64,000 nucleotides of DNA. Source: Escherichia coli (lineage in GTDB: Bacteria; Pseudomonadota; Gammaproteobacteria; Enterobacterales; Enterobacteriaceae). Position 1 is the stretch's first letter, and each line of letters starts with the position of its first letter. The stretch lies in assembly GCF_003790525.1 (NCBI RefSeq), contig NZ_CP033635.1; one strand, given 5' to 3'. The position numbers were made by a program, and so were the translations under genes. Positions 3,001 to 52,596 of the stretch are shown piece after piece. The notes beneath the pieces were generated by a model. It searched no databases. It saw only the letters and a list, made by a program, of their open reading frames with translations, and was not told where the DNA came from.

Positions 3001-6000
3001 CCTGGACACGATCTTTACGGTGGTTACCAGCCCGGATAGCAGCCAGGCGAAAATGTGGGGGCATATGCCGGAAACGGTGACGGCTGAGGACGGTACGGTC
3101 TTTAAACGCCCGCGGTTACTGAAGGAACTGAGCAGTCAGACTGGGCGAACATCAACGCTTGAAGACAACGAAAACTGGGCGTTGTTTAACATTAATTATG
3201 CGAGCTCTTCCACGACGTATAGTGGCTGTGGAACCAACTATATTCCGACTCAGGCCGGTCTGACGTCACTGTTTGCTAATAATGCGGGCAACACCATGAA
3301 AACCGTGCAGGGCTGGCCGGTGGCAACGCGCTATTTGTCCAACACGTCCGACAATGGCAGCATGGAGCAGCGTAACTACAAGGCGGTCGATCTCAGCAAT
3401 GGCACGAGTGCGGCAGTGTCATCAACGGCGCTGCAACTGCTGACCTGTCAGACTACACCGGTAACCACGGTGAGCCAAATCCTGCTGGAAGCGGCAGATC
3501 CGGCGACGCTGGATACCACCTATAACGTGGTAAAAGCGAAAAAAGGCGAAGAATCCGTGGTGCGCGTCACCACCAAAGATGCACAAGGCAACCTGGTGGG
3601 CAATACGGCATTTATCCTGACGCGTGCCAACAGCGTGAGTCGGGCTAATGCATCAGCGACGATGAGCGTGGGCTCGTTGACGGTGACGGATGCCTGGGGC
3701 AATACGCGAAATAATTTCCAGTCGACAAGTGAAACCATTTACGGCGTGACCGGTGCCGACGGGTCAACGACATTGACCCTGAAACAGGATAACAGTACCG
3801 GGTTAAGAACCGATCTCACGGCAAAACTGGATACGTCCAGCAGCGTCAAGGCAACGCTACCGGTGGTCTTTACCGTCGTGACCAGCCCGGATTCGCCAAA
3901 AGCGAATTTTTGGGGACATATGGCCGAAACGGTGGCGGCCTCCGATGGTTCAGTCTATAAACGCCCACTGTTGCTGGCAGAGCTGGCCAACACTGGCGGG
4001 CGACAAATCAGTTCAGAGAACGGGGAAAGCTGGGTACGATTCACCTGGAATCAGTCGACAGATCCTTCTGTAAGCGGCTGCGGCGTTGCGTATATGCCAA
4101 CGTTGGCAGGCCTGCAAGCGTTGTATGACGCTAATAGTGGTAATGCAATGAGTACGGTACAGGGATGGCCGGTAAAAGCGACCTATCTCACCAATACCCC
4201 AAGTGACACGCAAACGGGGAGCCGTTACTACAATGTGGTGCAACTGGATTCTGGCGCAGCCTCGCAAATCACGACGAACACGGGTGTACTGCAAACCTGC
4301 CGTACAACGCCGTTGACGGCTGCCAGCCAGATTACGCTGGAGGCCGCGGATCCTGCGCAATTTGTCAGCATTGACAGCACGCTTAGCGCTGTCAAAGTGC
4401 AGAAAGGCGATAGCGTGCCGATCCGCATTTCGACTAAAGATGCGCAGGGCAATTTCGTCGGCAATACGCCGTTTGCCCTGAAACACGCGAACTCGATCAA
4501 TCGTCAAAATGTGTCGTCATCGCAGAAAGTGTCGGTCACGACGGAGGTGGGTACGACGGTGGATACCAGTGCAACAACCACCCTGTATGGCGTAACCGGG
4601 CCAGACGGAACCACCACGATGACGCTCCGACAGGATGCGTCCACCGGGTTAAGAACCGACTTTTATGCCCTGTTGAACGATACCGGCGTGTCGTCGGACA
4701 CCTTGCCGGTGATCTTTACCGTCATCACCAGCCCGGATACGCCGCTGGCGGCCAACTGGGGCCATATGGCGGAAACCTTTACCAGTAGCGAAGGCGTCAC
4801 CTTCAAGCGGCCTTCCCTCAAAGCTGAACTCTCTGGCGGTACGGCCATAACGGTCAATAATGAAGTCTGGTCGCGCCTGACAGCGGCGGAGAAAGTGGAT
4901 GCCAGCAAGGCCGGGTGTGATGAGACGTATCAACCGCTGGTGAATGACATGCAGGGGTTGTATGCGGATTACCCTAACGGCCAGTTAGGATCGGTGCTCG
5001 GCTTGCCGACGTCTGCCGGGTATTGGTGGGCCTACGACATGATGATGGTTTCTGGCAACTGGACTAATCAGGCATTTTCACCTGTTAATGGTCAGTTGAT
5101 GCAGGCATCGTCCAGCTATACGGCGATCGTGATGTGTCTGGTAGAACCACATACGGAAGCAGCCACAATAGAGCTTACTTCAACGGCGCAGGACGCAGCA
5201 AAATCGGCCAGTAATGGTGGACGACCGAGCGCCGTAGCGAAGAAAGGCGAGACGATTCCGTTGACGGTGACCGTGCGTGATAGCGCCGGGAACCCGATGC
5301 CATATGCTGAGTTTACCCTCACGCGTGAAACGACGCTGGATCGCTCGAAAGCAACCGTTAACACGAGTGCGGACGACCTTACCGTAACGGCATTGGTACC
5401 CGCGAATACAAATAGTGTGTTGGCAGCAAGTGGAGCAAAACTGATCGGCACGACGGGCAGCGATGGCAAAGCGACCTTTGAGGTGAGTCAGAATGCGACG
5501 ACCGGGCTGGCGACGCCGTTAACCGTGACGCTGGCGCGTGATACGACGAAAGCCGCCACGCTGGATGTTATCTATACGGTGATCACCAGCCCGGATTCGC
5601 CGAGTGCGAAATTCTGGGGGCATATGCCGGACACCTTTACCAGCTCGACGGGCGTCACCTTCAAACGACCGCTGCTGAAAGCAGAAACCAGCTCAGGCTC
5701 ATCGATTAGCTCTAACGGCGAAGTTTGGTCATATATGAGCAACGCGCAAAATTTAACATCGACAGATTGCCCGCTCGAAAATCAACCGCGCAGTAATGAG
5801 CTGTTGGATTTGTATAGTGATCACCCGAACGGCACGCTAATGACCGACCTGGGGTTACCCGTATATGCAGGTAACTGGTGGGCCTATGATATGGTCATGC
5901 TGAGTGGAACGTCGTGGACTTATCAACTCATCAGCCTGAAAGACGGAACCATTACGCAGAAGGGGACAACCAGTGCGTTGATGCTTTGCCTGGCACAGCC

Positions 6001-7684
6001 GCATCCGGCCGGCGTCAGCGTAACATTGACGTCATCCGCACAGGATGACGCCAGAACCACCAGCAATGGCGGCCGTCCCAGCGCGTCAGCGAAAAAAGGT
6101 AACTCAATACCGATTGTGGTAACGGTAAAAGATCGTGATGGCAACCCGTTGGCGGGCGAAGCGGTGACGCTCAAACGTGATTCAGCGTTGAGCCGTTCAG
6201 GAACAATCGTGGGGACGCCAGCGAATGAAATAAAGTTGACGGAACTGACGCCCGTGTCGGCGACATTCCCGCTGGTTTCAAATGGTACACAATGGCTTGG
6301 TTTCACCGGTAGCGATGGTACGGCGACATTCAATGTTGAACAGCCTGATACTGTCGGCCTGGCAATCCCCTTTAACGCCATCCTGGCCCGTGACACGGCA
6401 AAGGTATCTACTCTGGATCTGATTTTTACCGTCCTCACCAGCCCGGATGCCGCATTAGCAACTTACTGGGGCCATATGCCGGATACCGTCACGGCGGAAA
6501 ACGGTGCTGTCTTTGAGCGCCCTAAACTGTGGAAAGAGCTGCCGTCGACATCCGGGGTAAGTCAGATAACGAATAGCAATGAAGCCTGGCCAGTGTTTAA
6601 CGCAACGCAGAGGGCTGACAGCAATCTCAGCCCTTGTGAAGCGGCGCGTCGACCATTGAGCGATGATTTAGAAGCGCTCTATACACGTTATCCAGGAAAC
6701 ACGATTACCGCGCAAATTGGCTGGCCTACGCAGTATGCATGGTGGGCGGTGGATAACTGGGAAGGGGGCAGTAATCCGCAGGCCGTCAGCCTGGTAAATG
6801 GTTCGAGAGGCCAATATAATCCCGCTCATCAGGCCTGCCTGGTTAACCCGCGTGCGAGCGTTTCCAGCGTCACGCTGACATCAACGGCGCTGGATGACGC
6901 CACACAGGCGGCGACGGTGAAAAAAGGCGACGCCGCGCCCATTGTCGTTACCGTAAAAGACAGCGCCGGGAAGCCGGTGCCGAATATCGCTTTTATCCTA
7001 AAACGCGGTGAGGCCGTGCCGCGTAACAGCGGGGCGACGCTGTATGGCGATGTGGATGCGATGGACGATTTGACTGTGCAACCTTCATCCGGTGCGGCAG
7101 TCACGTTGGCTGACAGTGGAAATACCATCGACGGAGTCACGGGAGCGGACGGTACGGCAAGCTTTACCGTTCGTCAGGATAATACGCCAGGATATAAAAC
7201 GCCGTTGACGGTGACGCTGACGGATAACGCCACCATAACGGCGACGCTGGACACGATTTTCACCGTGCCGACCAGCCCGAATGTCGCCACGGCGTATTTC
7301 TGGGGTCATATGGCGGATACCGCCACGGTAAGTGGCAAGACGCTGCATCGCCCGCTATTAAAATCGGAGTTGCCGTCAGGCGCTACCGCAGCAGCAACGC
7401 CTGATGTAAATAATGAAACCTGGGCACTGGCGCATGTTATGGATTCCTCTAAATGGGATGTCGCGCAGCAGTGTGGCAGTATGAATAACGTGCCGAGCAG
7501 TGCCGAATTACAAACATTACACTCCGGCTTTAGCACATTGGGATGGCCGTCCTCGATAAGCTTCCCGTATTTATCTACTGATAAGGCTGGGTCGTTCTAT
7601 TGTGGTGTTGATGAAGGCTCTGGCAGTCTCAACTGTGGCATTCAGCCTGCGAAAACGCCGGGGTTTGCAACCTGCTTCCAGTAA
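1..7684 (+). CDS. giant surface adhesin, 5'-truncated by window edge; tandem Big_1-like (invasin/intimin-type) repeats; RatA/RatB/SinH-like
   Basis: Reading frame is open from position 2 to stop at 7684 (ORF track starts at a GTG at 65). About 9 repeats of ~280 aa each end in a TSPD-x5-WGHM motif (e.g. [35 protein letters not shown]). Lies next to xseA, where such adhesin loci occur in enterobacteria. Confidence 0.6.
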
Positions 7685-7715
7685 CCTTATCCACCTTGTC
7701 AATATGAGGTTCCGA

Positions 7716-9135
<1,420 letters not shown>

Positions 9136-9266: not shown

Positions 9267-10733
9267 ATGCTACGTATCGCTAAAGAAGCTCTGACGTTTG
9301 ACGACGTTCTCCTCGTTCCTGCTCATTCTACCGTTCTGCCGAATACTGCTGACCTCAGCACCCAGCTGACGAAAACTATTCGTCTGAATATCCCTATGCT
9401 TTCCGCAGCAATGGATACCGTAACGGAAGCGCGCCTGGCTATTGCTCTGGCTCAGGAAGGCGGTATCGGCTTTATCCACAAAAACATGTCCATTGAACGC
9501 CAGGCAGAAGAAGTTCGCCGTGTGAAAAAACACGAATCTGGCGTGGTAACTGATCCGCAGACCGTGCTGCCGACAACCACCCTGCGTGAAGTGAAAGAAC
9601 TGACCGAGCGTAACGGCTTTGCGGGCTACCCGGTGGTTACCGAAGAAAACGAACTGGTCGGCATCATCACCGGTCGTGACGTGCGTTTTGTGACCGATCT
9701 GAATCAACCGGTTAGCGTTTACATGACGCCGAAAGAGCGTCTGGTAACCGTGCGTGAAGGCGAAGCCCGTGAAGTGGTGCTGGCAAAAATGCACGAAAAA
9801 CGCGTTGAAAAGGCGCTGGTGGTTGATGACGAATTCCACCTGATCGGCATGATCACTGTGAAGGACTTCCAGAAAGCGGAACGTAAACCGAACGCGTGTA
9901 AAGACGAACAAGGCCGTCTGCGTGTAGGTGCAGCGGTTGGCGCGGGTGCGGGTAACGAAGAGCGTGTTGATGCGCTGGTTGCCGCAGGCGTTGACGTTCT
10001 GCTGATCGACTCCTCTCACGGTCACTCTGAAGGTGTTCTGCAGCGTATCCGTGAAACTCGCGCTAAATATCCTGACCTGCAAATCATCGGCGGCAACGTG
10101 GCAACAGCAGCAGGTGCCCGCGCGCTGGCAGAAGCCGGTTGCAGTGCCGTTAAAGTGGGTATCGGCCCTGGTTCTATTTGTACTACCCGCATTGTTACTG
10201 GCGTCGGTGTTCCGCAGATCACCGCCGTTGCTGACGCAGTAGAAGCCCTGGAAGGCACCGGAATTCCGGTTATCGCTGACGGTGGTATTCGTTTCTCCGG
10301 CGACATCGCCAAAGCTATCGCCGCTGGCGCAAGCGCGGTAATGGTGGGTTCCATGCTGGCAGGTACTGAAGAATCTCCGGGTGAAATTGAACTCTACCAG
10401 GGCCGTTCTTACAAATCTTACCGTGGTATGGGTTCCCTGGGCGCGATGTCCAAAGGTTCTTCTGACCGTTACTTCCAGAGCGACAACGCTGCCGACAAAC
10501 TGGTGCCGGAAGGTATCGAAGGTCGCGTGGCCTATAAAGGTCGCCTGAAAGAGATCATTCACCAGCAGATGGGCGGCCTGCGCTCCTGTATGGGCCTGAC
10601 CGGCTGTGGTACTATCGACGAACTGCGTACTAAAGCGGAGTTTGTACGTATCAGCGGTGCGGGCATTCAGGAAAGCCACGTTCACGACGTGACCATTACT
10701 AAAGAGTCCCCGAACTACCGTCTGGGCTCCTGA
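9267..10733 (+). CDS. guaB: IMP dehydrogenase
   Basis: Translation from ATG 9267 [27 protein letters not shown]..., 488 aa, CBS pair and catalytic GSICTTR loop; ORF track's upstream start at 9198 rejected. Confidence 0.95.
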
Positions 10734-10801: not shown

Positions 10802-12379
10802 ATGACGGAAAACATTCATAAGCATAGCATCCTCATTCTGGACTTCGGTTCCCAGTATACTCAACTGGTTGCGCGCCGCGTGCGTGAGCTGGGCGTTTAC
10901 TGCGAACTGTGGGCGTGGGATGTGACAGAAGCACAAATTCGTGACTTCAATCCAAGCGGCATTATTCTTTCCGGCGGCCCGGAAAGCACCACCGAAGAAA
11001 ACAGCCCGCGTGCGCCGCAGTATGTCTTTGAAGCAGGCGTACCGGTATTCGGCGTTTGCTATGGCATGCAGACCATGGCGATGCAGTTGGGTGGTCACGT
11101 TGAAGCCTCTAACGAACGTGAATTTGGCTACGCGCAGGTTGAAGTCGTAAACGACAGCGCACTAGTTCGCGGTATCGAAGATGCGCTGACCGCAGACGGT
11201 AAACCTCTGCTCGATGTCTGGATGAGCCACGGCGATAAAGTTACCGCTATCCCGTCCGACTTCGTCACCGTAGCCAGCACCGAAAGCTGCCCGTTTGCCA
11301 TTATGGCTAACGAAGAAAAACGCTTCTATGGCGTACAGTTCCACCCGGAAGTGACTCACACCCGCCAGGGTATGCGCATGCTGGAGCGTTTTGTGCGTGA
11401 TATCTGCCAGTGTGAAGCCCTGTGGACGCCAGCGAAAATTATCGACGATGCTGTAGCCCGTATCCGCGAGCAGGTAGGCGACGATAAAGTCATCCTCGGC
11501 CTCTCTGGTGGCGTGGATTCCTCCGTGACCGCAATGCTGCTGCACCGCGCTATCGGTAAAAATCTGACTTGCGTATTCGTCGATAACGGCCTGCTGCGTC
11601 TCAACGAAGCAGAGCAGGTTCTGGATATGTTTGGCGATCACTTTGGTCTGAACATTGTTCACGTTCCGGCAGAAGATCGCTTCCTGTCAGCGTTGGCCGG
11701 CGAAAACGATCCGGAAGCAAAACGTAAAATCATCGGGCGCGTTTTCGTTGAAGTATTCGATGAAGAAGCACTGAAACTGGAAGACGTGAAGTGGCTGGCG
11801 CAGGGCACTATCTACCCTGACGTTATTGAATCTGCCGCATCTGCAACCGGTAAAGCACACGTCATCAAATCTCACCACAACGTGGGCGGCCTGCCGAAAG
11901 AGATGAAGATGGGCCTGGTTGAACCGCTGAAAGAGCTGTTCAAAGACGAAGTGCGTAAGATTGGTCTGGAGCTGGGCCTGCCGTACGACATGCTGTACCG
12001 TCACCCGTTCCCGGGACCAGGCCTTGGCGTTCGTGTTCTGGGTGAAGTGAAGAAAGAGTATTGTGACCTGCTGCGCCGTGCTGACGCCATCTTCATTGAA
12101 GAACTGCGTAAAGCGGACCTGTACGACAAAGTCAGCCAGGCGTTCACCGTCTTCCTGCCGGTACGTTCCGTTGGCGTAATGGGCGATGGTCGTAAGTATG
12201 ACTGGGTTGTCTCTCTGCGTGCTGTCGAAACCATCGACTTTATGACCGCACACTGGGCGCATCTGCCGTACGATTTCCTCGGTCGCGTTTCCAACCGCAT
12301 TATCAATGAAGTGAACGGTATTTCCCGCGTGGTGTATGACATCAGCGGCAAGCCGCCAGCTACCATTGAGTGGGAATGA
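10802..12379 (+). CDS. guaA: GMP synthase (glutamine-hydrolysing)
   Basis: 525-aa translation [40 protein letters not shown]... ends IEWE; immediately downstream of guaB. Confidence 0.95.
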
Positions 12380-12571: not shown

Positions 12572-13822
12572 GTGCTTACCGATACAAAATTAAAGAACCT
12601 CAAGCCACAGGACAAACTGTACAAAGTTTCCGATCGTGACGGGCTGTATGTAGCTGTGCTTACGTCAGGTACGGTCTCGTTTCGCTATGACTACCGTATC
12701 AACGGTCGCCGCGAAACACTGGTAATCGGGCAGTATGGGCGTGACGGTATCAGCCTGGCAGAAGCGCGAGAAGAACTGATTGCTGCAAAGAAGCTGCTTA
12801 AAGCAGGCCAGTCGCCGGCTGCGGCTAAACGTGACGGTATCAAAAAGATTCGTGGTGCCGAGACGTTTGCGGTACATACCGACAGTTATATGAAACACGT
12901 CATCCTGGCTGAAAGTACCCGCGCAATGAAGCAGGCAGTGATCGACCGTGACATACTTCCTGTTCTTGGCAACAAAATGATGACTGAAATTACCACATCG
13001 ATGGTTCGTGATTTGTGTGACCGGATTGTCGAACGCGGTGGTCGGGCAACAGCAGTACAGGCCAGGGAGATCATTAGCAGCGTATACCGTCACGCCAATG
13101 ACCGTGGTCATGGTTTGTTTAATCCTGCGGCTGACATTAAACCTTCGTCTATCGCCATATTTAAACCACGAGAGCGAACACTGACACCAGAAGAAATTGG
13201 TCTGTTCTTCCGCACGCTGGATGCCATTGGTGCTATGGGCACTATGAAAATGGCTTTAAAGCTGGTGCTTATCACTATGGTTCGTAAAGGCGAATTCACC
13301 AATGCAACGTGGGACGAAATAGATTTTAAAAAATGGACATGGACAATTCCTTCAGACCGCATGAAGGGAAGCCGGGCGCACGTTATTTACCTGCCAAAAC
13401 AGGCACAGGATATATTGGTTGGGTTGCAGATGTGCGCTGGTGGAAGTGAATATCTGGTTCCTGGTCGTTACAATTTCCGGAAGCCATTATCTAATGCCGC
13501 ACTGAACTCTCTGATCGACAGAACGGTGAAAATAATAAATGAAGATGGTGAGCATATTCAGGGCTTCACCGTACACGATATGCGCCGTACAGCCAGTACG
13601 TTGTTGCATGAGGCTGGTTATCCTTCAGACTGGATTGAAAAGGCTCTGGCACATGAGCAGAAAGGTGTGCGCGCCGTATATAACAAAGCGGAATACGCCA
13701 GACAGCGCGCCTACATGTTGCAGCAGTGGGCCGATATGATTGATTCCTGGATTAACGGGGAGCATACGGATCTAATTCCGTTCTCCCCGTCGAAGTTTGA
13801 GAAGTGGATGGCGGGGGAATAA
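12572..13822 (+). CDS. int: tyrosine-type phage integrase (P4-like family)
   Basis: GTG start; N-terminus MLTDTKLKNLKPQDKLYKVSDRDGLYVAV and C-terminal catalytic region VHDMRRTASTLLHEAGY...AHEQKGVRAVY typical of tyrosine recombinases; adjacent to attL. Confidence 0.9.
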   Translation: MLTDTKLKNLKPQDKLYKVSDRDGLYVAVLTSGTVSFRYDYRINGRRETLVIGQYGRDGISLAEAREELIAAKKLLKAGQSPAAAKRDGIKKIRGAETFAVHTDSYMKHVILAESTRAMKQAVIDRDILPVLGNKMMTEITTSMVRDLCDRIVERGGRATAVQAREIISSVYRHANDRGHGLFNPAADIKPSSIAIFKPRERTLTPEEIGLFFRTLDAIGAMGTMKMALKLVLITMVRKGEFTNATWDEIDFKKWTWTIPSDRMKGSRAHVIYLPKQAQDILVGLQMCAGGSEYLVPGRYNFRKPLSNAALNSLIDRTVKIINEDGEHIQGFTVHDMRRTASTLLHEAGYPSDWIEKALAHEQKGVRAVYNKAEYARQRAYMLQQWADMIDSWINGEHTDLIPFSPSKFEKWMAGE

Positions 13823-27987: not shown

Positions 27988-28064
27988 TGGCGCGGCATGC
28001 AGGATTCGAACCTGCGACCAACCGCTTAGAAGGCGGTTGCTCTGTCCAACTGAGCTAATGCCAC
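27988..28064 (-). tRNA. tRNA-Arg (anticodon UCU), phage-encoded
   Basis: 77-nt cloverleaf folded by hand: acceptor GUGGCAU/AUGCCGC, D-stem GCUC/GAGC, anticodon stem ACCGC/GCGGU with loop CUUCUAA, T-arm GCAGG-UUCGAAU-CCUGC, encoded CCA. Confidence 0.85.
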
Positions 28065-45152: not shown

Positions 45153-45175
45153 ACAAAAAAGCCCGCAGCGCGGGC
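45153..45175 (-). terminator. rho-independent terminator after two-gene cassette
   Basis: gcccgc agcg cgggc hairpin with T-run on minus strand. Confidence 0.5.
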
Positions 45176-45615
45176 TATTCTTCTTCATCATTAAAAAGCG
45201 GATTGTTGTTTCCATCTGATGAAAGGAAAGGTATGTGTTCTCTTGAAAATCCAACAATGACAATTTCATTATCATTTTTTGCATAATGAATGCATTCATT
45301 AGAATGCCTTCCGCCAGGGTTGAAATTTAAGTTAATGGTATAATTCTTAAATGTGTTTGGATACCATGTTGGCCCACAATGATAATGCCAATAATTCTCT
45401 TGCTCATAATTGTCTGAGCCGGGAATTTTATCATGGTTATCATCAACCCACGAGGGCTTGTTTTTTCCAACAAGCGCCCTTCCATTGGCAACATCCTCTA
45501 AAAAACTTTGTATGATTTTTATTTCATCATCAGTAAGGAAAGGTCCGTCTACAGCGAAAGGGGTGTTGCTTTCCCCATGTAGAAAACTATTAGATATTCT
45601 AATGTTAAACTTCAA
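45175..45615 (-). CDS. hypothetical ~147-aa protein, downstream gene of two-gene cassette (candidate toxin/effector)
   Basis: TTG start with SD AGGAG 6 nt upstream (an in-frame ATG at 45756 has no SD and overlaps the upstream gene); contains WHYHCGP and GGRHSNECIH segments; low GC. Confidence 0.4.
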   Translation of the reverse strand: MKFNIRISNSFLHGESNTPFAVDGPFLTDDEIKIIQSFLEDVANGRALVGKNKPSWVDDNHDKIPGSDNYEQENYWHYHCGPTWYPNTFKNYTINLNFNPGGRHSNECIHYAKNDNEIVIVGFSREHIPFLSSDGNNNPLFNDEEE

Positions 45616-45635
45616 GGAAAACTCCTGATGTGCTT

Positions 45636-45803
45636 CTATTTGGAGCGAAATGCCGCCTTGAAGTCGCTGAAAGATGTTCCTGTCTGGTAAACCATATCCT
45701 TGTCGCGCTCTTTGCTTGCGCGGCCAAGCATAACTTTTCCAATGACATCCCAGCATTGCTTGGCTTGTTCATTGTGCTGAGTACGATTTTTCAACGCTGT
45801 CAT
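45636..45803 (-). CDS. hypothetical 55-aa protein, upstream gene of two-gene cassette (candidate antitoxin/regulator)
   Basis: ATG with SD AGGAGG; MTALKNRTQHNEQAKQCWDVIGKVMLGRASKERDKDMVYQTGTSFSDFKAAFRSK; not in ORF track (<60 aa). Confidence 0.4.
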   Translation of the reverse strand: MTALKNRTQHNEQAKQCWDVIGKVMLGRASKERDKDMVYQTGTSFSDFKAAFRSK

Positions 45804-45815
45804 ATCGCGCCTCCT

Positions 45816-46592: not shown

Positions 46593-46855
46593 GATCACCT
46601 TTGTAGTTAGGTTAATCACCACTACCGACGCCAATCGGTTGGTGGTGAACTGTGCAGGGTTGGCGTAACCGGCTACAAAGGACCCGGCGCACCTTTCGGT
46701 GCCCCCACACAGCCCACCATAGAATAGGTGCGCTTTACACATAAAAAAACCGCTTATGCGGCATATGTGCCTCTGTAGTAACCCGGGACGCCAATCCCGG
46801 CACTGGATTTTGCCAGTGCCCGATTACTATGGCACAAGAGGAGTGCGATGTAAAT

Positions 46856-46870
46856 TTACCGAAAAGGTAA
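46856..46870. promoter_or_regulatory. TTACC-N5-GGTAA operator-like site (perfect)
   Basis: TTACC GAAAA GGTAA. Confidence 0.5.
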
Positions 46871-46901
46871 TAATAAACACTCTACTTGGTAATTGCAAAC
46901 C

Positions 46902-47159
46902 TTATCTGGTTTGTTTTCGTAATTGTTCGGCACAATAGTCGAGATGTGTTTGCAGATCCCGCATAGACATCTGTGAGCTGGTGACGTAGTTAATCAGTGC
47001 AGTCAGTTCGGCAAGTGGGCCATCGACATTAAATCCATCCTTATCGAGATCCCGGAGTAATTTCATCAAGTGCGATCCCTCCACCAGTGACCTGACGCCT
47101 CCCGGCGTGTGAATCCTTTCGGTAAATCCGTCTTCCAGTGGATAGTGATACTGCTGCAT
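46902..47159 (-). CDS. small protein homologous to the C-terminal domain of the adjacent Bro-N protein
   Basis: IHTPGGVRSLVEGSHLMKLLRDLDKDGFNVDGPLAELT aligns with IHSPSGVLGLTENSLLMNLLNQLQEDGHDVSGAAAELT of 45903-46592. Confidence 0.45.
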   Translation of the reverse strand: MQQYHYPLEDGFTERIHTPGGVRSLVEGSHLMKLLRDLDKDGFNVDGPLAELTALINYVTSSQMSMRDLQTHLDYCAEQLRKQTR

Positions 47160-47235
47160 CTTATCTTCTCCATGCAATAACTGTATATTTATACAGTATC
47201 AAATAATTTGTTTGCTATCCAGCACGTTTTGCAAA

Positions 47236-47250
47236 TTACCCGAAAGGTAA
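47236..47250. promoter_or_regulatory. TTACC-N5-GGTAA operator-like site (perfect) in divergent region upstream of tailspike
   Basis: TTACC CGAAA GGTAA. Confidence 0.5.
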
Positions 47251-47354
47251 TATCTATTCGTATTTACAGTCTTTCTATCCATATGTGGTTTTTCAGGTAA
47301 TAGAATAACCAGATATGCGGCGCAACGGGTGCTGCGACTATCTGGAGATTTAAC

Positions 47355-49544
47355 ATGACGGTCTCAACCGAAGTTGACCACAACGAATACACCGGTAACG
47401 GCGTTACGACATCATTTCCGTATACCTTCCGTATTTTCAAAAAAACCGACCTGGTTGTTCAGGTGTCTGACCTGAACGGGAACGTAACAGAATTGGTTCT
47501 GGATACCGGTTATAAGGTAACTGGAGCGGGCACTTATAGTGGCGGTGAAGTGGTTCTCCAGTCGCCGCTTGCTGCTGGCTGGCGAATTACGATAGAGCGT
47601 GTGCTTGATGTGGTGCAGGAGACTGATCTTCGCAATCAGGGAAAATTTTTCCCCGAAGTTCATGAAGATGCATTTGACTACCTGACGATGCTGATCCAGC
47701 GATGTTTTGGGTGGTTCAGACGTGCATTGATGAAACCATCTTTGCTTGCAAAATATTACGATGCAAAGCAAAACAAAATTTCTAACCTTGCAGATCCATC
47801 ATTTGAGCAGGACGCTGTAAATAATCGCTCAATGCGTAATTATGTCGATGCTGCAATCGCCGGGGTTGTTGGTGGTTTTGGTTGGTTTATACCGTCAGGA
47901 AGCGGGGCAAGACAACGAACATTTCAAAGCAAAATGAGGGATATAATTTCTCCTTGTGATTACGAAGATAATATTTTTATGATTAAGGAGTTGATATCCA
48001 AAGGCAAAAATGCCGCTGTTTTTAACTCATATTATACTTTTGTTATTACTGTTGGCGAATGGGGTGATTTCCCTACACTCAAAGATGCAATCATTGCAGC
48101 CCAGTCAATGAGACCTATGTGGGATGGTGGTAATGCTTTCTGCGAAATAAGAATTAAGACCGGGCATATTATCAACTATCAAATTGAATTCAGTTCAGGT
48201 GTTGATTTGTCTTGGATTAAAATAACATCAGAAGACTCAGTGGTTTTCTCTGACACTCGTTTGTTTACTAAAATCGTTAGAACGTATTACGAATACAAGT
48301 ATTTATTTTACATTTGCGATGCAGCAAAAAGTCCTGTATTTGCTATTCAGATCGAAGAAAATAGAGATGATAGCGATGTTTGTGCATTTATTGTAACTCA
48401 AAAAGCTGAACTTAATTTCTATCCGTATTCAGGTGCTCGAAAGTTCTACGTTGGAATTCATGGTAGTTTTGGTGCAAAAATTAGTGCATATCATACCGGA
48501 TGTGCTCCTGATGAGGAAAGTGTTGCTGCATATATGCCAGAAGGGTATTACGTATGTGATTTTTCTTATAGCAGATACTCTTCCCTGCAACTGGTAAATA
48601 ATGTCAAGGCATCAATGCCTGTAAGCAAGTTTGAACGGTGCACAGAGAGTACGGTTGCGTCAGTTAATTGTATTTATAATGTTAAAGCAGATTTTCAGGG
48701 GTCAAGTGCAAGCTATTGTTATATAGGATGGAATGTAAGAGATGGTTCAAATGTTAATATACGCGACCATAAAACTATACATTGCTCATATCGTGGATTA
48801 ACCTGCATTCATACAGCATATGTTGATGCAAGACGACATGACGTTGAAGAAAGTGATGCAGAAACAAGTGGTAAAGTCCTTGAACCAAATATTGAAAAAG
48901 GTTTTTATGGATGTGCACTTGGTGTGCGTATTGATGGTGCGGGTTGCGTTGATGTTGCTGGTAATGATATGCGCAATTGTGGAACAGCCGTTAATGCAGA
49001 CACTGGTGCTGTTATTTCAGGAAAGGCTGTAGATATCTCAGGGGCTGAGCTGGGATTTGATTGCCATGCAGGAGCATCTGTTAATTTTCCAAGGCTATGG
49101 GGTACAGATATAAAAAAATTAATGCACCTCCAAGATGGTGTAAGGTTTAACTCTAATATTTGTCATGTATTTGGTGCAAATCCCACAAAAGATATTAGAT
49201 GGATTGATGTAGAGAGATCTGAAGCTTCTTTTATGAATGCAACGCTGGATGCAGATTCAGGATTTATTGCCGACTGTGGTAGTAGGATAACCATTGAAGG
49301 AAGTAAAGTTAAAAACCAAACAATAAGAAGTTTTTTTGGATCATATGTGGCTATAAATAATACTGTTGCTGACAGAACTTATTCAGATATAGCCGATGTT
49401 CCGCAGTTGACTATTAGTGGAGGATCTTTTATTTCTGCTACAGGATATTCTAATTCTGACTCCAGCCCTCTGAGGTTGAGCACAACACGAAATACACTTG
49501 GCGTTGGAGGAGCCATATTTTCAACCAATGGGGAAGTTTCATGA
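47355..49544 (+). CDS. tailspike/tail fiber protein
   Basis: 729 aa; conserved-looking N-terminal particle-binding region then AT-rich C-terminal region with repetitive beta-rich sequence. Confidence 0.65.
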   Translation: MTVSTEVDHNEYTGNGVTTSFPYTFRIFKKTDLVVQVSDLNGNVTELVLDTGYKVTGAGTYSGGEVVLQSPLAAGWRITIERVLDVVQETDLRNQGKFFPEVHEDAFDYLTMLIQRCFGWFRRALMKPSLLAKYYDAKQNKISNLADPSFEQDAVNNRSMRNYVDAAIAGVVGGFGWFIPSGSGARQRTFQSKMRDIISPCDYEDNIFMIKELISKGKNAAVFNSYYTFVITVGEWGDFPTLKDAIIAAQSMRPMWDGGNAFCEIRIKTGHIINYQIEFSSGVDLSWIKITSEDSVVFSDTRLFTKIVRTYYEYKYLFYICDAAKSPVFAIQIEENRDDSDVCAFIVTQKAELNFYPYSGARKFYVGIHGSFGAKISAYHTGCAPDEESVAAYMPEGYYVCDFSYSRYSSLQLVNNVKASMPVSKFERCTESTVASVNCIYNVKADFQGSSASYCYIGWNVRDGSNVNIRDHKTIHCSYRGLTCIHTAYVDARRHDVEESDAETSGKVLEPNIEKGFYGCALGVRIDGAGCVDVAGNDMRNCGTAVNADTGAVISGKAVDISGAELGFDCHAGASVNFPRLWGTDIKKLMHLQDGVRFNSNICHVFGANPTKDIRWIDVERSEASFMNATLDADSGFIADCGSRITIEGSKVKNQTIRSFFGSYVAINNTVADRTYSDIADVPQLTISGGSFISATGYSNSDSSPLRLSTTRNTLGVGGAIFSTNGEVS

Positions 49545-49837
49545 TTAAGAGCATTGATGTCACTCCATTTCTTCACTCGCTTTGCGCTTTTGCGGCTCAG
49601 GTACTGGTTGGTATTTTTACCGGAAACTGGGCTTACGGTGCGATAGCCGGTTGTACGTTCTTCATTGCGCGTGAACACACCCAGGCAGAATATCGCTGGA
49701 TAGAAAAGTTTGGGAAAGGGAAACGTATCAACATGCCGTGGTGGGGAGGTTTTGATCCACGCGTGTGGGATGTGGGAAGTCTGTTGGATTTTGCTGTTCC
49801 TGTTGTTTTTTGTTTTTGTGTTTATTTCTCTATTTGA
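49541..49837 (+). CDS. small membrane protein (holin or serotype-conversion candidate)
   Basis: 98 aa with hydrophobic segments; ATGA overlap with tailspike stop. Confidence 0.35.
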   Translation: MIKSIDVTPFLHSLCAFAAQVLVGIFTGNWAYGAIAGCTFFIAREHTQAEYRWIEKFGKGKRINMPWWGGFDPRVWDVGSLLDFAVPVVFCFCVYFSI

Positions 49838-50030
49838 CTGCTACCGCGCCATTAAATGGTGCGGTATTCAACCTGCTCTTCACTGTTTGTTTCTTCAGAG
49901 TCATGTAAAAGGTGAGCTTTATTCTCGGCATGAAAAACAGGGAATTGACGATGTTAAAGTAACAAAAAACCATAAATGGTTTATTATGCGTAATGCTTTA
50001 CTGTTCAGGAGGTTGTTATGCATATAAACG

Positions 50031-50444
50031 GTGGAAAACATGTCAGCTCAACTAACCAGTGAAACTTTAAATCAGTGGCTTAGCATGAGTTCTCTGGCGG
50101 CGGTGATAGCAGGAGTTCCTCCTGAGGTTGCTTTGGGTGCTTTGGCTGGAGCGGTAATTTTTGTTACCTCTGCAGTAGAGTACCCCATCCGTCGCCGGGT
50201 GCTCCTGTCGATGCTCAGCTTTCTTTGCGGCCTTCTCTTTTACAAACCAGCAGCATCAATTCTTATCGGCATAGCCAGCCTGATCCCTACCATCACGCAG
50301 GACTCTTTTGAAAAAGGGATTGTTTTCTCTGCAGGCGCATTCGTGTCAGCAATTGTCGCTGTGCGTATTGGTATATGGCTCTATCACCGTTCCGATAATC
50401 CACGCGAGTTAATTCCGGGGAGAAAAGACGATGGTAACGCATGA
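50031..50444 (+). CDS. membrane protein, holin-like
   Basis: 137 aa, multiple TM segments, immediately upstream of lysis genes. Confidence 0.4.
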   Translation: MENMSAQLTSETLNQWLSMSSLAAVIAGVPPEVALGALAGAVIFVTSAVEYPIRRRVLLSMLSFLCGLLFYKPAASILIGIASLIPTITQDSFEKGIVFSAGAFVSAIVAVRIGIWLYHRSDNPRELIPGRKDDGNA

Positions 50445-50739
50445 GTTTTTTTTGCTTATCACCAATGCAGTTATTTGCACTGGCATAGCAATTCGCGTTG
50501 TCACATTCCGGCGTAACGGCTCTCAACACCGAAGGTGGGGAGGATGGCTTGCTTATTTCCTGATTGTTGCTGCGGCCAGTATTCCTGTTCGTGTCGCCTA
50601 TGCAATCTGGTTACGTACGCCAATGGCTGTGGATTTATCTGAGGTCATTATCAACGCTGTCATGCTAGCTGCGGTTATTAAAACGCGCGGTAACGTCGTT
50701 CAAATTTTCAAAGTATCGAGGTCTAAACATGGAGATTAA
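50431..50739 (+). CDS. membrane protein, holin-like
   Basis: 102 aa, about 3 TM segments, directly precedes endolysin. Confidence 0.45.
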
Positions 50740-51358
50740 ACAATTCCAGCGAGCTGCTGGTATCAGCGAGGCACTGGCCGCACGCTGGTTCTCGCATATA
50801 ACTTCTGCGATGAAAGAGTTTGGTATCAGCAAACCAGAAGATCAGGCTATGTTTATTGCTCAGGTCGGGCATGAGTCTGGAGGCTTCACCCGGTTGCAGG
50901 AGAATTTCAACTACAGCGTCAGCGGACTGGCTAACTTTGTTCGGGCTGGGCGTCTCACTCAGGGACAGGCCAACGCATTGGGGCGACGTGCAGGCGAACC
51001 ACCATTGCCACTTGAGCGCCAGAGAGCGATTGCCAATCTGGTGTACAGCAAACGCATGGGGAACAATGCCCCTGGTGATGGCTGGAACTACCGTGGGCGC
51101 GGGCTTATCCAGGTTACCGGTTTGAATAACTATCGTGACTGTGGAAACGGTCTTAAGGTTGACCTGCTGGAGAGTCCTGAACTGCTGGCGCAGGACGAAT
51201 ACGCGGCTCGTAGCGCGGCGTGGTTCTTTGCCAGCAAAGGATGCATGAAGTATACCGGCGATATTGCACGTGTAACTCTGATTATCAATGGTGGCCGGAA
51301 CGGCATCGACGACCGGCGCGCGCGATACATCAATGCCAGTAAGGTGCTGGCGGTATGA
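50729..51358 (+). CDS. endolysin, glycoside hydrolase family 19 (chitinase-like lysozyme)
   Basis: [12 protein letters not shown] and [16 protein letters not shown] motifs typical of GH19 phage endolysins. Confidence 0.75.
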
Positions 51359-51837
51359 TCTGGGCATTCGTAAAAGCATACTGGAAACAGTTGGTTATCA
51401 TGGCGATGCTTGCTGTTCTGGTCATATCAGGAGTTGTAGCCTGGAATGCACACGGTAGTCGTCAGTACGACGCCGGGTATGCGCAGGCGGAAGAAGACCG
51501 CAAAGACGAAGAAGACAAAGTTCGTCAGTACTACGAACAGGAGAAAGTGACCAATGAACGTGAAGCGCAGCAAAGAATCGACCAGGCGCGCAATGATGCT
51601 CTTGATGCTGCCGCTCGCGCTGGCAGGTTGCAGCAACAACTCTTTGCCATCCGTGAGCAGCTCAGGCAGTATAACGCCATTGTCGGCGCTGGGACGTCAG
51701 CCGCAGACACCGGAGTTTTGCTTGCCGACGTGCTCAGCAAATCTCTCGAGAGAAACAGACAACTGGCAGAGTATGCTGACCGGGCAGCCGAAGCCGGAAG
51801 AGTCTGCGAAAAACAGTACGACACCCTGACCAGATAG
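51355..51837 (+). CDS. Rz-like i-spanin
   Basis: N-terminal TM segment plus coiled-coil periplasmic domain; follows endolysin. Confidence 0.6.
51554..51829 (+). CDS. Rz1-like o-spanin lipoprotein, embedded in a different frame within Rz
   Basis: Lipobox LALAGC followed by Pro/Ser-rich sequence; fully nested in 51355-51837. Confidence 0.55.
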   Translation: MNVKRSKESTRRAMMLLMLPLALAGCSNNSLPSVSSSGSITPLSALGRQPQTPEFCLPTCSANLSRETDNWQSMLTGQPKPEESAKNSTTP

Positions 51838-52056: not shown

Positions 52057-52596
52057 TTAGTTAAACCAGCTGTCCGATTTGTTCTCTTCTGCTTTGCCCA
52101 CGCTTTTCATCAGATCGCGACCGCCTTCAGTCATATTTCTGTTTGCGTCAGCTTCAGATTGCACCACATCGGTTTGCGCAGCTTTGTGCTTCAGTTCCTG
52201 ATCGATAAATTCGTTTTCTCGCTTAACGCGGGCTTCTTCTTTCGCCAGCGCCAGTTTTTGTTTCTGAATCTCTAAGCTGCGTAGCTCATCTTCATAACTT
52301 TGATCGCGTTTTTTGTCCGCAGTGGCTTCGGCGTCCAGTTTATCCTGACGAGCTTTCTTATTCGCTGCTGCCGTTGCCGCTCTTTTATTAGCCGCGGCCT
52401 GGGCGTTTGCGCGACGTTGCTTCTCTTGCTGGATTTCCCTGTTGCGCTCCGCGACCCATTCGTCATGCTGCCTTTGCTCTTCATTTTTACCTTGCTGTTC
52501 CGCTTCTGCGACAGCAGAGAGTTGATCCTGCAATGATGAGGCGATAGCCGGATAGCTTAAGGAGGCTAAGATGGCGCAAAGAAAAACTTTCTTCAT
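52057..52596 (-). CDS. yfgI: periplasmic protein YfgI
   Basis: 179 aa, signal peptide, Lys/Glu/Gln-rich; synteny with yfgH/yfgG/pdeF. Confidence 0.7.
   Translation of the reverse strand: MKKVFLCAILASLSYPAIASSLQDQLSAVAEAEQQGKNEEQRQHDEWVAERNREIQQEKQRRANAQAAANKRAATAAANKKARQDKLDAEATADKKRDQSYEDELRSLEIQKQKLALAKEEARVKRENEFIDQELKHKAAQTDVVQSEADANRNMTEGGRDLMKSVGKAEENKSDSWFN

What the first reader, a model, noticed from the sequence alone, without database searches (positions are those of the whole stretch)
47355..49544. Tailspike appears mosaic: conserved-looking N-terminus and AT-rich C-terminal receptor-binding region
Base composition shifts by eye from roughly balanced in the first ~550 bp to strongly AT-rich afterwards. 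This is consistent with horizontal swapping of the receptor-binding/enzymatic domain onto a conserved particle-binding domain. Small membrane proteins immediately downstream (49541-50739) could be holins or O-antigen conversion factors.
Basis: partly seen in the sequence, partly recalled or inferred. Interest (0 to 1): 0.35.

Follow-up and report, generated by a model that had tools for sequence, protein, structure and literature searches.

The report
Mosaic prophage tailspike, likely capsule-specific
This is the tailspike gene of an epsilon15-like E. coli prophage whose host-recognition part was recently swapped in from unrelated phages, an ordinary kind of event, but the swapped part seems to target the K52/K116 capsules of invasive E. 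coli rather than the O antigen.

Summary
ORF 47355-49544 (729 aa) drops from 46% GC (GC3 44%) in its first 536 bp to 38% (GC3 24%) afterwards, and that part is the lowest-GC stretch of its length in the window.

The mosaic reading is also right, and the breaks are sharp:
- aa 1-179 are the epsilon15-type (Uetakevirus) particle-binding domain, 95% identical to phage ZX5.
- aa 180-272 are a divergent neck with no close relative.
- aa 273-729 are a beta-helix receptor-binding domain, 97.5% identical in DNA to P22-like phages JEP4 and HZ41 and to the 130-kb phage 92CQ.

Sister prophages at the same guaA-yfgI site carry other receptor-binding domains. They lose homology exactly at 47890 and regain it at 50016, so the swapped cassette is 47891-50015.

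The cassette includes a 98-aa membrane ORF of unknown function (49541-49837). The next two small ORFs are holins, followed by an endolysin and a spanin.

Three carriers have different O-antigen loci (O11, O15, O83). In contrast, 14 of 15 carrier genomes have the rare K52 or K116 capsule locus (48 of 5426 genomes). I therefore infer a capsule-specific tailspike, probably a depolymerase; no enzymatic activity was tested.

This is a new member of a known kind and of moderate interest.

The parts
47355..47890 (+). Tailspike module 1 (aa 1-179): epsilon15/Uetakevirus-type particle-binding N-terminal domain
   Evidence: 95.3% nt and 95.5% aa identity to the phage ZX5 (Uetakevirus) tailspike. 74.5% nt identity to Salmonella epsilon15-like phages. 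N-terminal match to about 20 PHROG tail-spike/fibre families. PDB sequence match to residues 1-207 of the Dpo31/Dpo36 tailspike, E 1e-30. GC 46.1%.
47891..48171 (+). Tailspike module 2 (aa 180-272): linker motif (GSGA..RTFQ.KMRD..SP.DY) plus the divergent N-terminal cap of the receptor-binding domain
   Evidence: DNA homology to four sister prophages/phages stops knife-edge after GGTTGGTTTAT at 47890. The only nucleotide-level relatives are HEMP4 and the identical prophages. 44-45% aa and 54% nt identity to JEP4/92CQ. This is the least conserved part of the family, 30-53%. GC 38.4%.
48172..49544 (+). Tailspike module 3 (aa 273-729): right-handed beta-helix receptor-binding domain, probably a depolymerase
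49541..49837 (+). 98-aa three-helix membrane ORF (phrog_1443) that overlaps the tailspike stop codon (ATGA); part of the swapped cassette; function unknown
   Evidence: 91% aa identity to JEP4_21, which sits in the same position after the JEP4 tailspike; DNA homology runs to 49800. Absent from sister prophages that carry other receptor-binding domains. AlphaFold pLDDT 91.8, three helices. No Pfam, NCBIfam or PDB fold match. RefSeq annotates it from 49553.
49838..50015 (.). Right-hand spacer of the swapped cassette (GC 0.36)
   Evidence: Homology to the Uetakevirus backbone resumes at 50016/50017 in ZX5, E23 and WWCOL-236.
50040..50444 (+). Holin (Phage_holin_8); backbone gene, not part of the cassette
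   Evidence: Pfam PF16931, E 4e-12; phrog_198 holin. RefSeq 'putative holin'.
50431..50739 (+). Holin (Phage_holin_3_7)
   Evidence: Pfam PF05449, E 5e-27; phrog_217 holin.
50729..51358 (+). Endolysin (glycoside hydrolase family 19)
   Evidence: Pfam PF00182; phrog_181 endolysin, E 2.5e-91.
51355..51837 (+). Rz-like i-spanin (DUF2514); last gene of the prophage before yfgI
   Evidence: Pfam PF10721, E 9e-43; phrog_312. yfgI follows at 52057-52596.

Best explanation
ORF 47355-49544 is the tailspike of a ~39.5-kb epsilon15-like (Uetakevirus) prophage integrated between guaA and yfgI. It was built by at least two recombination events.

SHOWN
- aa 1-179 are the lineage's conserved adaptor, which fixes the trimer to the tail.
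- At a recombination hot-spot right after the codons for GGFGWFI (47890), a foreign low-GC cassette (47891-50015) replaces whatever receptor-binding domain was there before.
- The cassette holds a divergent neck (aa 180-272), a beta-helix receptor-binding domain (aa 273-729) and a small membrane-protein gene.
- From 48172 to 49800 the cassette is 97.5-98% identical in DNA to the tailspike ends of P22-like phages. It matches a 130-kb phage as far as 49557. So the transfers between unrelated phages are recent.

INFERRED
- The beta-helix binds, and probably cleaves, a surface polysaccharide so that the virion can reach the outer membrane.
- The target is the K52/K116 group-2 capsule (teichoic-acid-like, made by related TagF-like polymerases), not the O antigen.
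- The basis is that 14 of 15 carrier genomes have one of these two rare K loci, while their O loci differ.

My confidence by step: mosaic and cassette, 0.95; K52/K116 specificity, about 0.65; enzymatic depolymerase rather than pure binder, about 0.5. The 98-aa ORF travels with the domain here, but it is a general neighbour of receptor-binding genes and its function is unknown.
For: Composition.

Module homology.

Sharp shared breakpoints at 47890 and 50016 in sister prophages that carry GH28-type, endosialidase or other receptor-binding domains. One of them, WWCOL-236, is 99.9% identical over the 3.9 kb upstream.

Same domain family fused to five or more different anchors (Head_binding, Tail_spike_N, Phage_tail_fib, Phage_T7_tail, epsilon15-type).

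Fold.

Prophage frame (guaB, guaA, integrase ... Rz, yfgI).

Capsule association:
- The domain is in 15 of 5426 complete genomes: 10 on the epsilon15-type backbone and 5 on the P22-type.
- The kps region 2 of carrier 118UI is in 39 genomes, including 9 carriers. A related locus is in 9 genomes, including 5 carriers.
- The two loci match K52 and K116 of the kTYPr catalogue in gene order, gene sizes and the GalT identity of 63.11%.
- Fisher p 3e-29. Counting only 5 independent backbone-by-K-type combinations, p 3e-8.

O loci differ among carriers: O11, O15, O83. O11 wzy is in 66 genomes; of the 60 listed, only one is a carrier.

Internal control: a sister prophage with an endosialidase tailspike sits in a strain labelled O2:K1:H5.
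Against:
- One carrier (EC332) has a different group-2 K locus containing glf and ugd.
- Carriers are phylogenetically related to an unknown degree (K52 is mostly CC69; PMC13171598), so the association is inflated by shared descent.
- The K-type assignment is indirect, because the typing tool was not run.
- The JEP4 paper reports infection of 74% of phylogroup A isolates, which does not fit a group-2 capsule receptor. However, that paper's electron micrographs (myovirus, 106-nm head) do not fit the 39-kb P22-like genome deposited under that name.
Confidence: 0.75

Rival explanations
1. O-antigen-specific tailspike with an O-antigen conversion gene downstream.
For: The position matches known serotype-converting podoviruses: tailspike followed by a small membrane protein. 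The backbone is epsilon15-like.
Against: Carriers of the 99.9%-identical domain have three unrelated O loci: O11, O15 and O83. O11 wzy is in 66 genomes; of the 60 listed, only one is a carrier. The small ORF has no GtrA, acyltransferase or Wzy signature. It also follows unrelated fibres in lambdoid, P2-like and other phages and is present in 1827 of 5426 genomes.
Confidence: 0.07
2. The domain binds the K52/K116 capsule, or another structure linked to those lineages, without cleaving it. It would be a lectin-like beta-helix fibre rather than a depolymerase.
For: The closest solved structure, Andhra gp15, has no demonstrated enzymatic activity. There is no Pfam hydrolase or lyase hit. Two relatives carry an extra SGNH esterase domain, which suggests the beta-helix alone may not supply the enzymatic step in them.
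Against: The central beta-helix (aa 273-545) is the most conserved part of the family, with many invariant Asp, Glu, His, Arg and Tyr residues, as expected for an active-site groove. Most beta-helix tailspikes of capsule- or O-antigen-specific podoviruses are enzymes (general knowledge).
Confidence: 0.2
3. The capsule association is a by-product of clonal descent: a few lysogenic clones that happen to be K52 or K116. It would say nothing about the receptor.
For: K52 is concentrated in CC69. Several carriers are near-identical at the prophage, 99.9%. Two records (CB7286 and OZ392470) look like the same genome.
Against: The domain sits on two unrelated prophage backbones, and each of those occurs in both K types. 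Hosts range over human, pig, chicken and seawater isolates and carry different O loci. Five of the nine K116 genomes carry it.
Confidence: 0.1
4. The composition shift reflects only amino-acid or codon usage of a beta-helix domain, with no horizontal transfer.
For: Beta-helix domains are rich in Asn, Ser, Thr, Ile and similar residues, which favours AT-rich codons.
Against: The shift is strongest at third codon positions, 44% -> 24%. It coincides with abrupt homology breakpoints.
Confidence: 0.01

Closest known systems
Epsilon15 gp20 and other Uetakevirus tailspikes (ZX5, phiv142-3, PAS61, phiV10)
   Same: Same N-terminal particle-binding domain: 95% aa identity to ZX5, 74.5% nt to Salmonella epsilon15-like phages. 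Same gene position, between the antirepressor region and the holin-endolysin-Rz cassette. Same prophage backbone.
   Different: From aa 180 on there is no similarity. ZX5 has an endosialidase-type 1039-aa protein, while epsilon15 and phiV10 target O antigens. This protein is shorter (729 aa) and is followed by an extra small ORF.
P22-family tailspike module exchange (P22, Sf6, HK620, CUS-3): head-binding domain plus an interchangeable beta-helix
   Same: Same principle: a conserved adaptor carries an exchangeable beta-helix. The very same receptor-binding domain (98% aa) is found on a P22-type Head_binding (PF09008) adaptor in JEP4, HZ41 and five E. coli prophages.
Capsule-specific tailspikes of temperate or virulent coliphages (K1 endosialidases of CUS-3 and K1F, K5 lyase)
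   Same: A tailspike whose presence tracks the host K type. A sister prophage at the same locus carries an endosialidase in a K1 strain.
   Different: Unrelated fold details and sequence. The predicted target (K52/K116) is absent from the list of known E. coli K-specific depolymerases in PMC12488582. No activity is shown.
Staphylococcus phage Andhra gp15 receptor-binding protein (PDB 8egr)
   Different: 17% sequence identity. No sequence-level hit even with a family profile. Different anchor (coiled coil). Gram-positive host.
Receptor-blocking or exclusion genes placed next to receptor-binding genes (T5 llp, phi80/N15 cor; P22 gtr, Sf6 oac)
   Same: ORF 49541-49837 occupies the same position, directly downstream of the receptor-binding gene. 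It did so in all seven contexts that could be read, across podo-, sipho- and myovirus-type elements.
   Different: No sequence or fold similarity to any of them. It is an inner-membrane-type three-helix protein, with its conserved polar motif probably cytoplasmic by the positive-inside rule. It stays 60-85% identical next to unrelated fibres, so it does not co-vary with receptor specificity. Function untested.

Membership tests
Uetakevirus (epsilon15-like) tailspike | N-terminal particle-binding domain homologous to epsilon15 gp20 and its relatives | tested here: met
   95.5% aa identity to ZX5 over aa 1-179. 74.5% nt identity to Salmonella epsilon15-like phages over bp 1-346. Full-length match to phrog_5662 and N-terminal matches to about 20 tail families.
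Uetakevirus (epsilon15-like) tailspike | Located in an epsilon15-like genome, upstream of the holin-endolysin-Rz cassette | tested here: met
   Flanks are 91-96% identical to ZX5, which is classified as Uetakevirus. Lysis genes identified.
Right-handed parallel beta-helix tailspike receptor-binding domain | Beta-helix fold of the C-terminal part | tested here: met
Polysaccharide depolymerase (glycosidase, lyase or phosphodiesterase) | Identifiable catalytic residues or demonstrated cleavage | not testable with these tools
P22-like tailspike | Head_binding domain (PF09008) at the N-terminus | tested here: not met
   No Pfam hit. The relatives P0002, P0006, P0007 and P0016 do have it.
K-antigen (capsule)-specific receptor-binding protein | Occurrence restricted to hosts of one K type or related K types | tested here: met
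   14 of 15 carriers are K52 or K116, against 48 of 5426 genomes overall. One exception, EC332. This is a genomic association only, with no adsorption data.
Holins (for the three small ORFs at 49541-50739) | Match to a curated holin family | tested here: met
   Met for 50040-50444 (PF16931) and 50431-50739 (PF05449). Not met for 49541-49837, which has no family in Pfam, NCBIfam or PADLOC-independent scans.
O-antigen conversion factors (GtrA/GtrB, Oac acyltransferase, Wzy or Wzy inhibitors) | Family signature, plus linkage to a tailspike of one O specificity | tested here: not met
   No Pfam or NCBIfam hit for 49541-49837. It follows unrelated fibres. Carrier hosts have different O loci.

The most novel reading that the evidence does not exclude
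The receptor-binding domain would be the founding member, with no solved structure and no Pfam family, of a class of phage enzymes that degrade teichoic-acid-like, phosphodiester-linked capsules of Gram-negative bacteria (E. coli K52/K116). It would be evolutionarily related to the wall-teichoic-acid-directed receptor-binding proteins of Gram-positive picoviruses (Andhra gp15, phi29 gp12). That would give the first K52-specific depolymerase, for the K type reported to have the highest invasive potential. Separately, the 98-aa ORF would be a widespread, uncharacterised phage membrane factor tied to receptor-binding genes and present in a third of E. coli genomes.
Probability: 0.25. Interest if true: 0.65.

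Novelty: new member of a known kind. Interest (0 to 1): 0.4.

Why it matters
Modular exchange of tailspike receptor-binding domains is textbook phage biology, so the mosaic itself is not news. A 99.5% identical, unannotated copy is already in GenBank as phage HEMP4.

Two things could matter:
- The predicted specificity. [quoted passage not shown] K52 is missing from the list of known E. coli capsule depolymerases (PMC12488582). A ready-made K52/K116-binding or -degrading domain would be useful for typing, phage engineering and depolymerase therapy.
- The locus as a worked example. Three unrelated phage types share one module at 97.5-98% DNA identity, with base-pair-resolved junctions.

Tried and rejected
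- O-antigen hypothesis. O11 wzy does not track the domain. Rejected.
- JEP4 paper read for receptor data. No receptor is defined, and its micrographs do not fit the deposited genome, so its host range was not used.
- Sequence search of the domain against PDB, both as a single sequence and as a family profile. Only the N-terminal adaptors hit.
- Pfam and NCBIfam on the domain: nothing for this protein.
- Small ORF. Pfam, NCBIfam and PHROGs gave only phrog_1443 'unknown'. A Foldseek search of PDB found nothing below E = 5. The afdb50 library was unavailable. A profile search of 1.8 billion representatives found 444 clusters, all stand-alone proteins of about 100 aa. A Pfam scan of 50 distant members showed no consistent family. 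Contexts of three distant members were too short or unannotated to be informative.
- Promoter and terminator scan of 46700-50200: no excess over shuffles, and nothing between the tailspike and the small ORF.
- The Aeromonas P2-like fibre next to a small-ORF homologue does not share this receptor-binding domain. So the small ORF is not tied to this domain.
- Literature search for an E. coli K52 phage depolymerase: none found in the held library.
Full report

Yes. ORF 47355..49544 (+, 729 aa) is present as described.
- Its GC content is 0.40, against 0.50 for the window and 0.49 for the prophage.
- Split at bp 536 of the gene (window 47890), GC falls from 46.1% to 38.0% (p 0.0011). Third-position GC falls from 44.4% to 24.3% (p 5e-7).
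- An unconstrained change-point search puts the break at bp 371. Only 9 of 2000 codon shuffles reached its likelihood gain.
- The right-hand 1.8 kb is the lowest-GC stretch of its length in the 64-kb window.

**2. Genomic setting**

guaB (9270-10685) and guaA (10802-12379) are followed by an integrase (12572-13822). At the other end, the tailspike is followed by two holins, a GH19 endolysin and an Rz spanin, then the host gene yfgI. The element is thus a ~39.5-kb prophage between guaA and yfgI. Its flanks around the tailspike are 91-96% identical to phage vB_EcoP_ZX5, which is classified in Uetakevirus, the epsilon15-like podoviruses. Many complete E. coli genomes carry the same backbone at the same site.

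**3. The gene is a three-piece mosaic**

*Piece 1, aa 1-179 (47355-47890).* It is 95% identical in DNA and protein to the ZX5 tailspike and 74.5% in DNA to Salmonella epsilon15-like phages. It matches residues 1-207 of a solved tailspike (Dpo31/Dpo36, E 1e-30). This is the particle-binding adaptor.

*Piece 2, aa 180-272 (47891-48171).* It has no nucleotide-level relative apart from HEMP4 and the identical prophages. It keeps the protein motif GSGA..RTFQ.KMRD..SP.D[FY] that opens the receptor-binding part in sister tailspikes. It is only 44-45% identical in protein to the corresponding part of JEP4 and 92CQ.

*Piece 3, aa 273-729 (48172-49544).* It is 97.4-97.6% identical in DNA and 98% in protein to:
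- the tailspikes of JEP4 and HZ41 (Lederbergvirus, P22-like, with a Head_binding N-terminus);
- a 'tail fiber protein' of the 130-kb phage 92CQ.

Identity in 60-nt windows jumps from about 55% to 90-98% between 48147 and 48327. Phage HEMP4, an unannotated GenBank record, has the whole gene at 99.5%.

**4. The exchanged unit is a cassette, 47891-50015**

Four relatives with different receptor-binding domains were compared:
- WWCOL-236, 'GH28-related';
- E23 and ZX5, endosialidase type;
- CEA601S, another type.

Three of them are identical or near-identical to the window up to the same base, 47890, and WWCOL-236 is 99.9% identical over the preceding 3.9 kb. They are then unrelated to the window and align again from 50016/50017. 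CEA601S breaks at 47944 and 49956. The left junction lies right after GGTTGGTTTAT, the codons for ..GWFI. These sister prophages go from the tailspike stop straight to the holin gene. The window has an extra ORF there, 49541-49837.

**5. What the receptor-binding part is**

A database search found only 23 clusters of relatives. None has a Pfam domain on this part. They are fused to at least five different anchors: Head_binding, Tail_spike_N, Phage_tail_fib, Phage_T7_tail and the epsilon15 type. Two have an added SGNH esterase.

Within the family, aa 273-545 are the most conserved part (46-97%). The neck and the C-terminal third are variable. Invariant residues cluster in aa 284-544.

**6. What it probably recognises**

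The domain occurs in 15 of 5426 complete E. coli genomes. Ten have the epsilon15-type gene at 99.8-99.9% identity, and five have a P22-type gene at 98%.

*O antigen.* The rfb loci of three carriers are annotated O11 (MS 198-1), O15 (118UI) and O83 (PD23). O11 wzy is in 66 genomes; of the 60 listed, only one is a carrier. An O-antigen receptor is therefore unlikely.

*Capsule.*
- The group-2 capsule region 2 of 118UI contains a 1248-aa TagF-like 'CDP-glycerol glycerophosphotransferase family' gene, a galactosyltransferase-related gene, an 829-aa acyltransferase and a GT2, with kpsT displaced into the middle.
- That region is found in only 39 genomes, and nine of them are carriers: six epsilon15-type and three P22-type.
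- A related, simpler locus contains a 262-aa acetyltransferase, a 1249-aa TagF-like gene and a GalT-related gene. It is in nine genomes, five of them carriers.
- Gene order and sizes match K52 and K116 of the kTYPr catalogue. So does the GalT identity: 63.110% computed here against 63.11 in the paper's table (PMC13171606).
- One carrier, EC332, has another group-2 locus.

Fourteen of 15 carriers, against 48 of 5426 genomes overall, gives Fisher p 3e-29. Counting only five independent backbone-by-K-type combinations still gives p 3e-8. Shared descent inflates these figures. Even so, the pattern recurs across two prophage backbones, two K types, three or more O types and several host sources.

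A sister prophage with an endosialidase tailspike sits in a strain labelled O2:K1:H5. This shows that the lineage matches its tailspike to the host capsule.

From memory (Hofmann, Jann & Jann 1985, cited), K52 is a galactose-phosphate polymer with fructose and O-acyl groups. The TagF-like polymerase fits a phosphodiester-linked, teichoic-acid-like capsule, and so, tentatively, does the structural kinship with a Gram-positive phage receptor-binding protein.

**7. The downstream small ORFs**

ORFs 50040-50444 (Phage_holin_8) and 50431-50739 (Phage_holin_3_7) are holins of the backbone.

ORF 49541-49837 overlaps the tailspike stop codon (ATGA).
- It is 91% identical to the ORF in the same position in JEP4, and DNA homology runs to 49800.
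- It is predicted with high confidence as three helices. Two segments are strongly hydrophobic, and a net-positive, very conserved loop reads ..AREHTQAEYRWI..G.GKR.NMPWWGGFD.R.W.
- It has no Pfam, NCBIfam or PDB-fold match.
- The family is large: 428 or more clusters at 90% identity, and 444 at 50%, all stand-alone.
- It is present in 1827 of 5426 E. coli genomes, and also in phage 21 and lambda-like phages.
- In all seven contexts that could be read, it lies directly downstream of the receptor-binding gene, whatever the phage type and whatever the fibre.
- Other Uetakeviruses with different receptor-binding domains also have it.

It is therefore neither a recognisable holin nor a recognisable O-antigen conversion factor. 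Its position recalls exclusion or receptor-blocking genes such as cor and llp, but nothing was tested.

**8. Verdict**

The kind of event is well known, and an almost identical gene is already public. The added value is threefold: base-resolved junctions, evidence that the module moves among three unrelated phage types together with (or without) a small membrane-protein gene, and a genomic inference that the module is specific for K52/K116 capsules. I found no report of that specificity.

Noticed in passing
window 49541-49837; loci L007-L020: The 98-aa three-helix membrane protein family (phrog_1443) has no Pfam, NCBIfam or PDB match. It is present in 1827 of 5426 complete E. coli genomes, with up to 7 copies per genome. 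In all seven readable contexts it sits directly downstream of the receptor-binding gene, in podo-, sipho- and myovirus-type elements. Near-invariant motif: H12 .. R44-E45-H46-T-Q-A-E-Y-R-W .. R62 .. P66 .. G69-G70 .. W76.
   Followed up: partly
window 45186-45814 (ORF 45175-45756, - strand): A second low-GC (0.34-0.40) variable cassette holds a 193-aa ORF (phrog_5954, unknown function). Homology to E23 and ZX5 is interrupted exactly here, while WWCOL-236 and MS 198-1 share it.
   Followed up: no
window 27988-28064 (- strand): A tRNA-Arg (anticodon TCT) gene lies inside the prophage, far from both ends.
   Followed up: no
window 51554-51829 (+): An ORF embedded in another frame of the Rz gene carries a lipobox-like LALAGC. 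It is probably the o-spanin Rz1.
   Followed up: no
L004 (MS 198-1) versus window 46876/46902 and after 51837: The closest complete genome has an extra ~0.86-kb segment with a 729-nt hypothetical gene between the antirepressor region and the tailspike. It also has an IS200C between Rz and yfgI. The window lacks both.
   Followed up: partly
L023 (CEA601S) 3856-6432: RefSeq names this sister-prophage tailspike 'phage head-binding domain-containing protein'. Yet its first ~196 codons are the epsilon15-type adaptor, with homology to the window up to 47944. The annotation may be misleading, or the protein may be a further chimera.
   Followed up: no
GenBank MT740315 (JEP4), locus L001: The paper describing JEP4 reports a myovirus with a 106-nm head, but the deposited genome is a 39-kb P22-like Lederbergvirus with an integrase. 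The sequence may be an induced prophage of the propagation host rather than the imaged phage.
   Followed up: no
L024 (MS 198-1) 4779-7110: In this O11 carrier, galF at the head of the O-antigen cluster is split by an IS4 element.
   Followed up: no
window 65-7684 (+): A very long ORF (2539 aa) lies at the left edge of the window, upstream of xseA and guaB. It is presumably a host surface or adhesin-type protein.
   Followed up: no
L029 (118UI) 7081-7761 and 12791-13567: In the K52-type kps locus, kpsT lies between serotype-specific genes and is separated from kpsM. An IS3 remnant follows kpsS. This agrees with the rearrangements reported for K52 in PMC13171606.
   Followed up: partly
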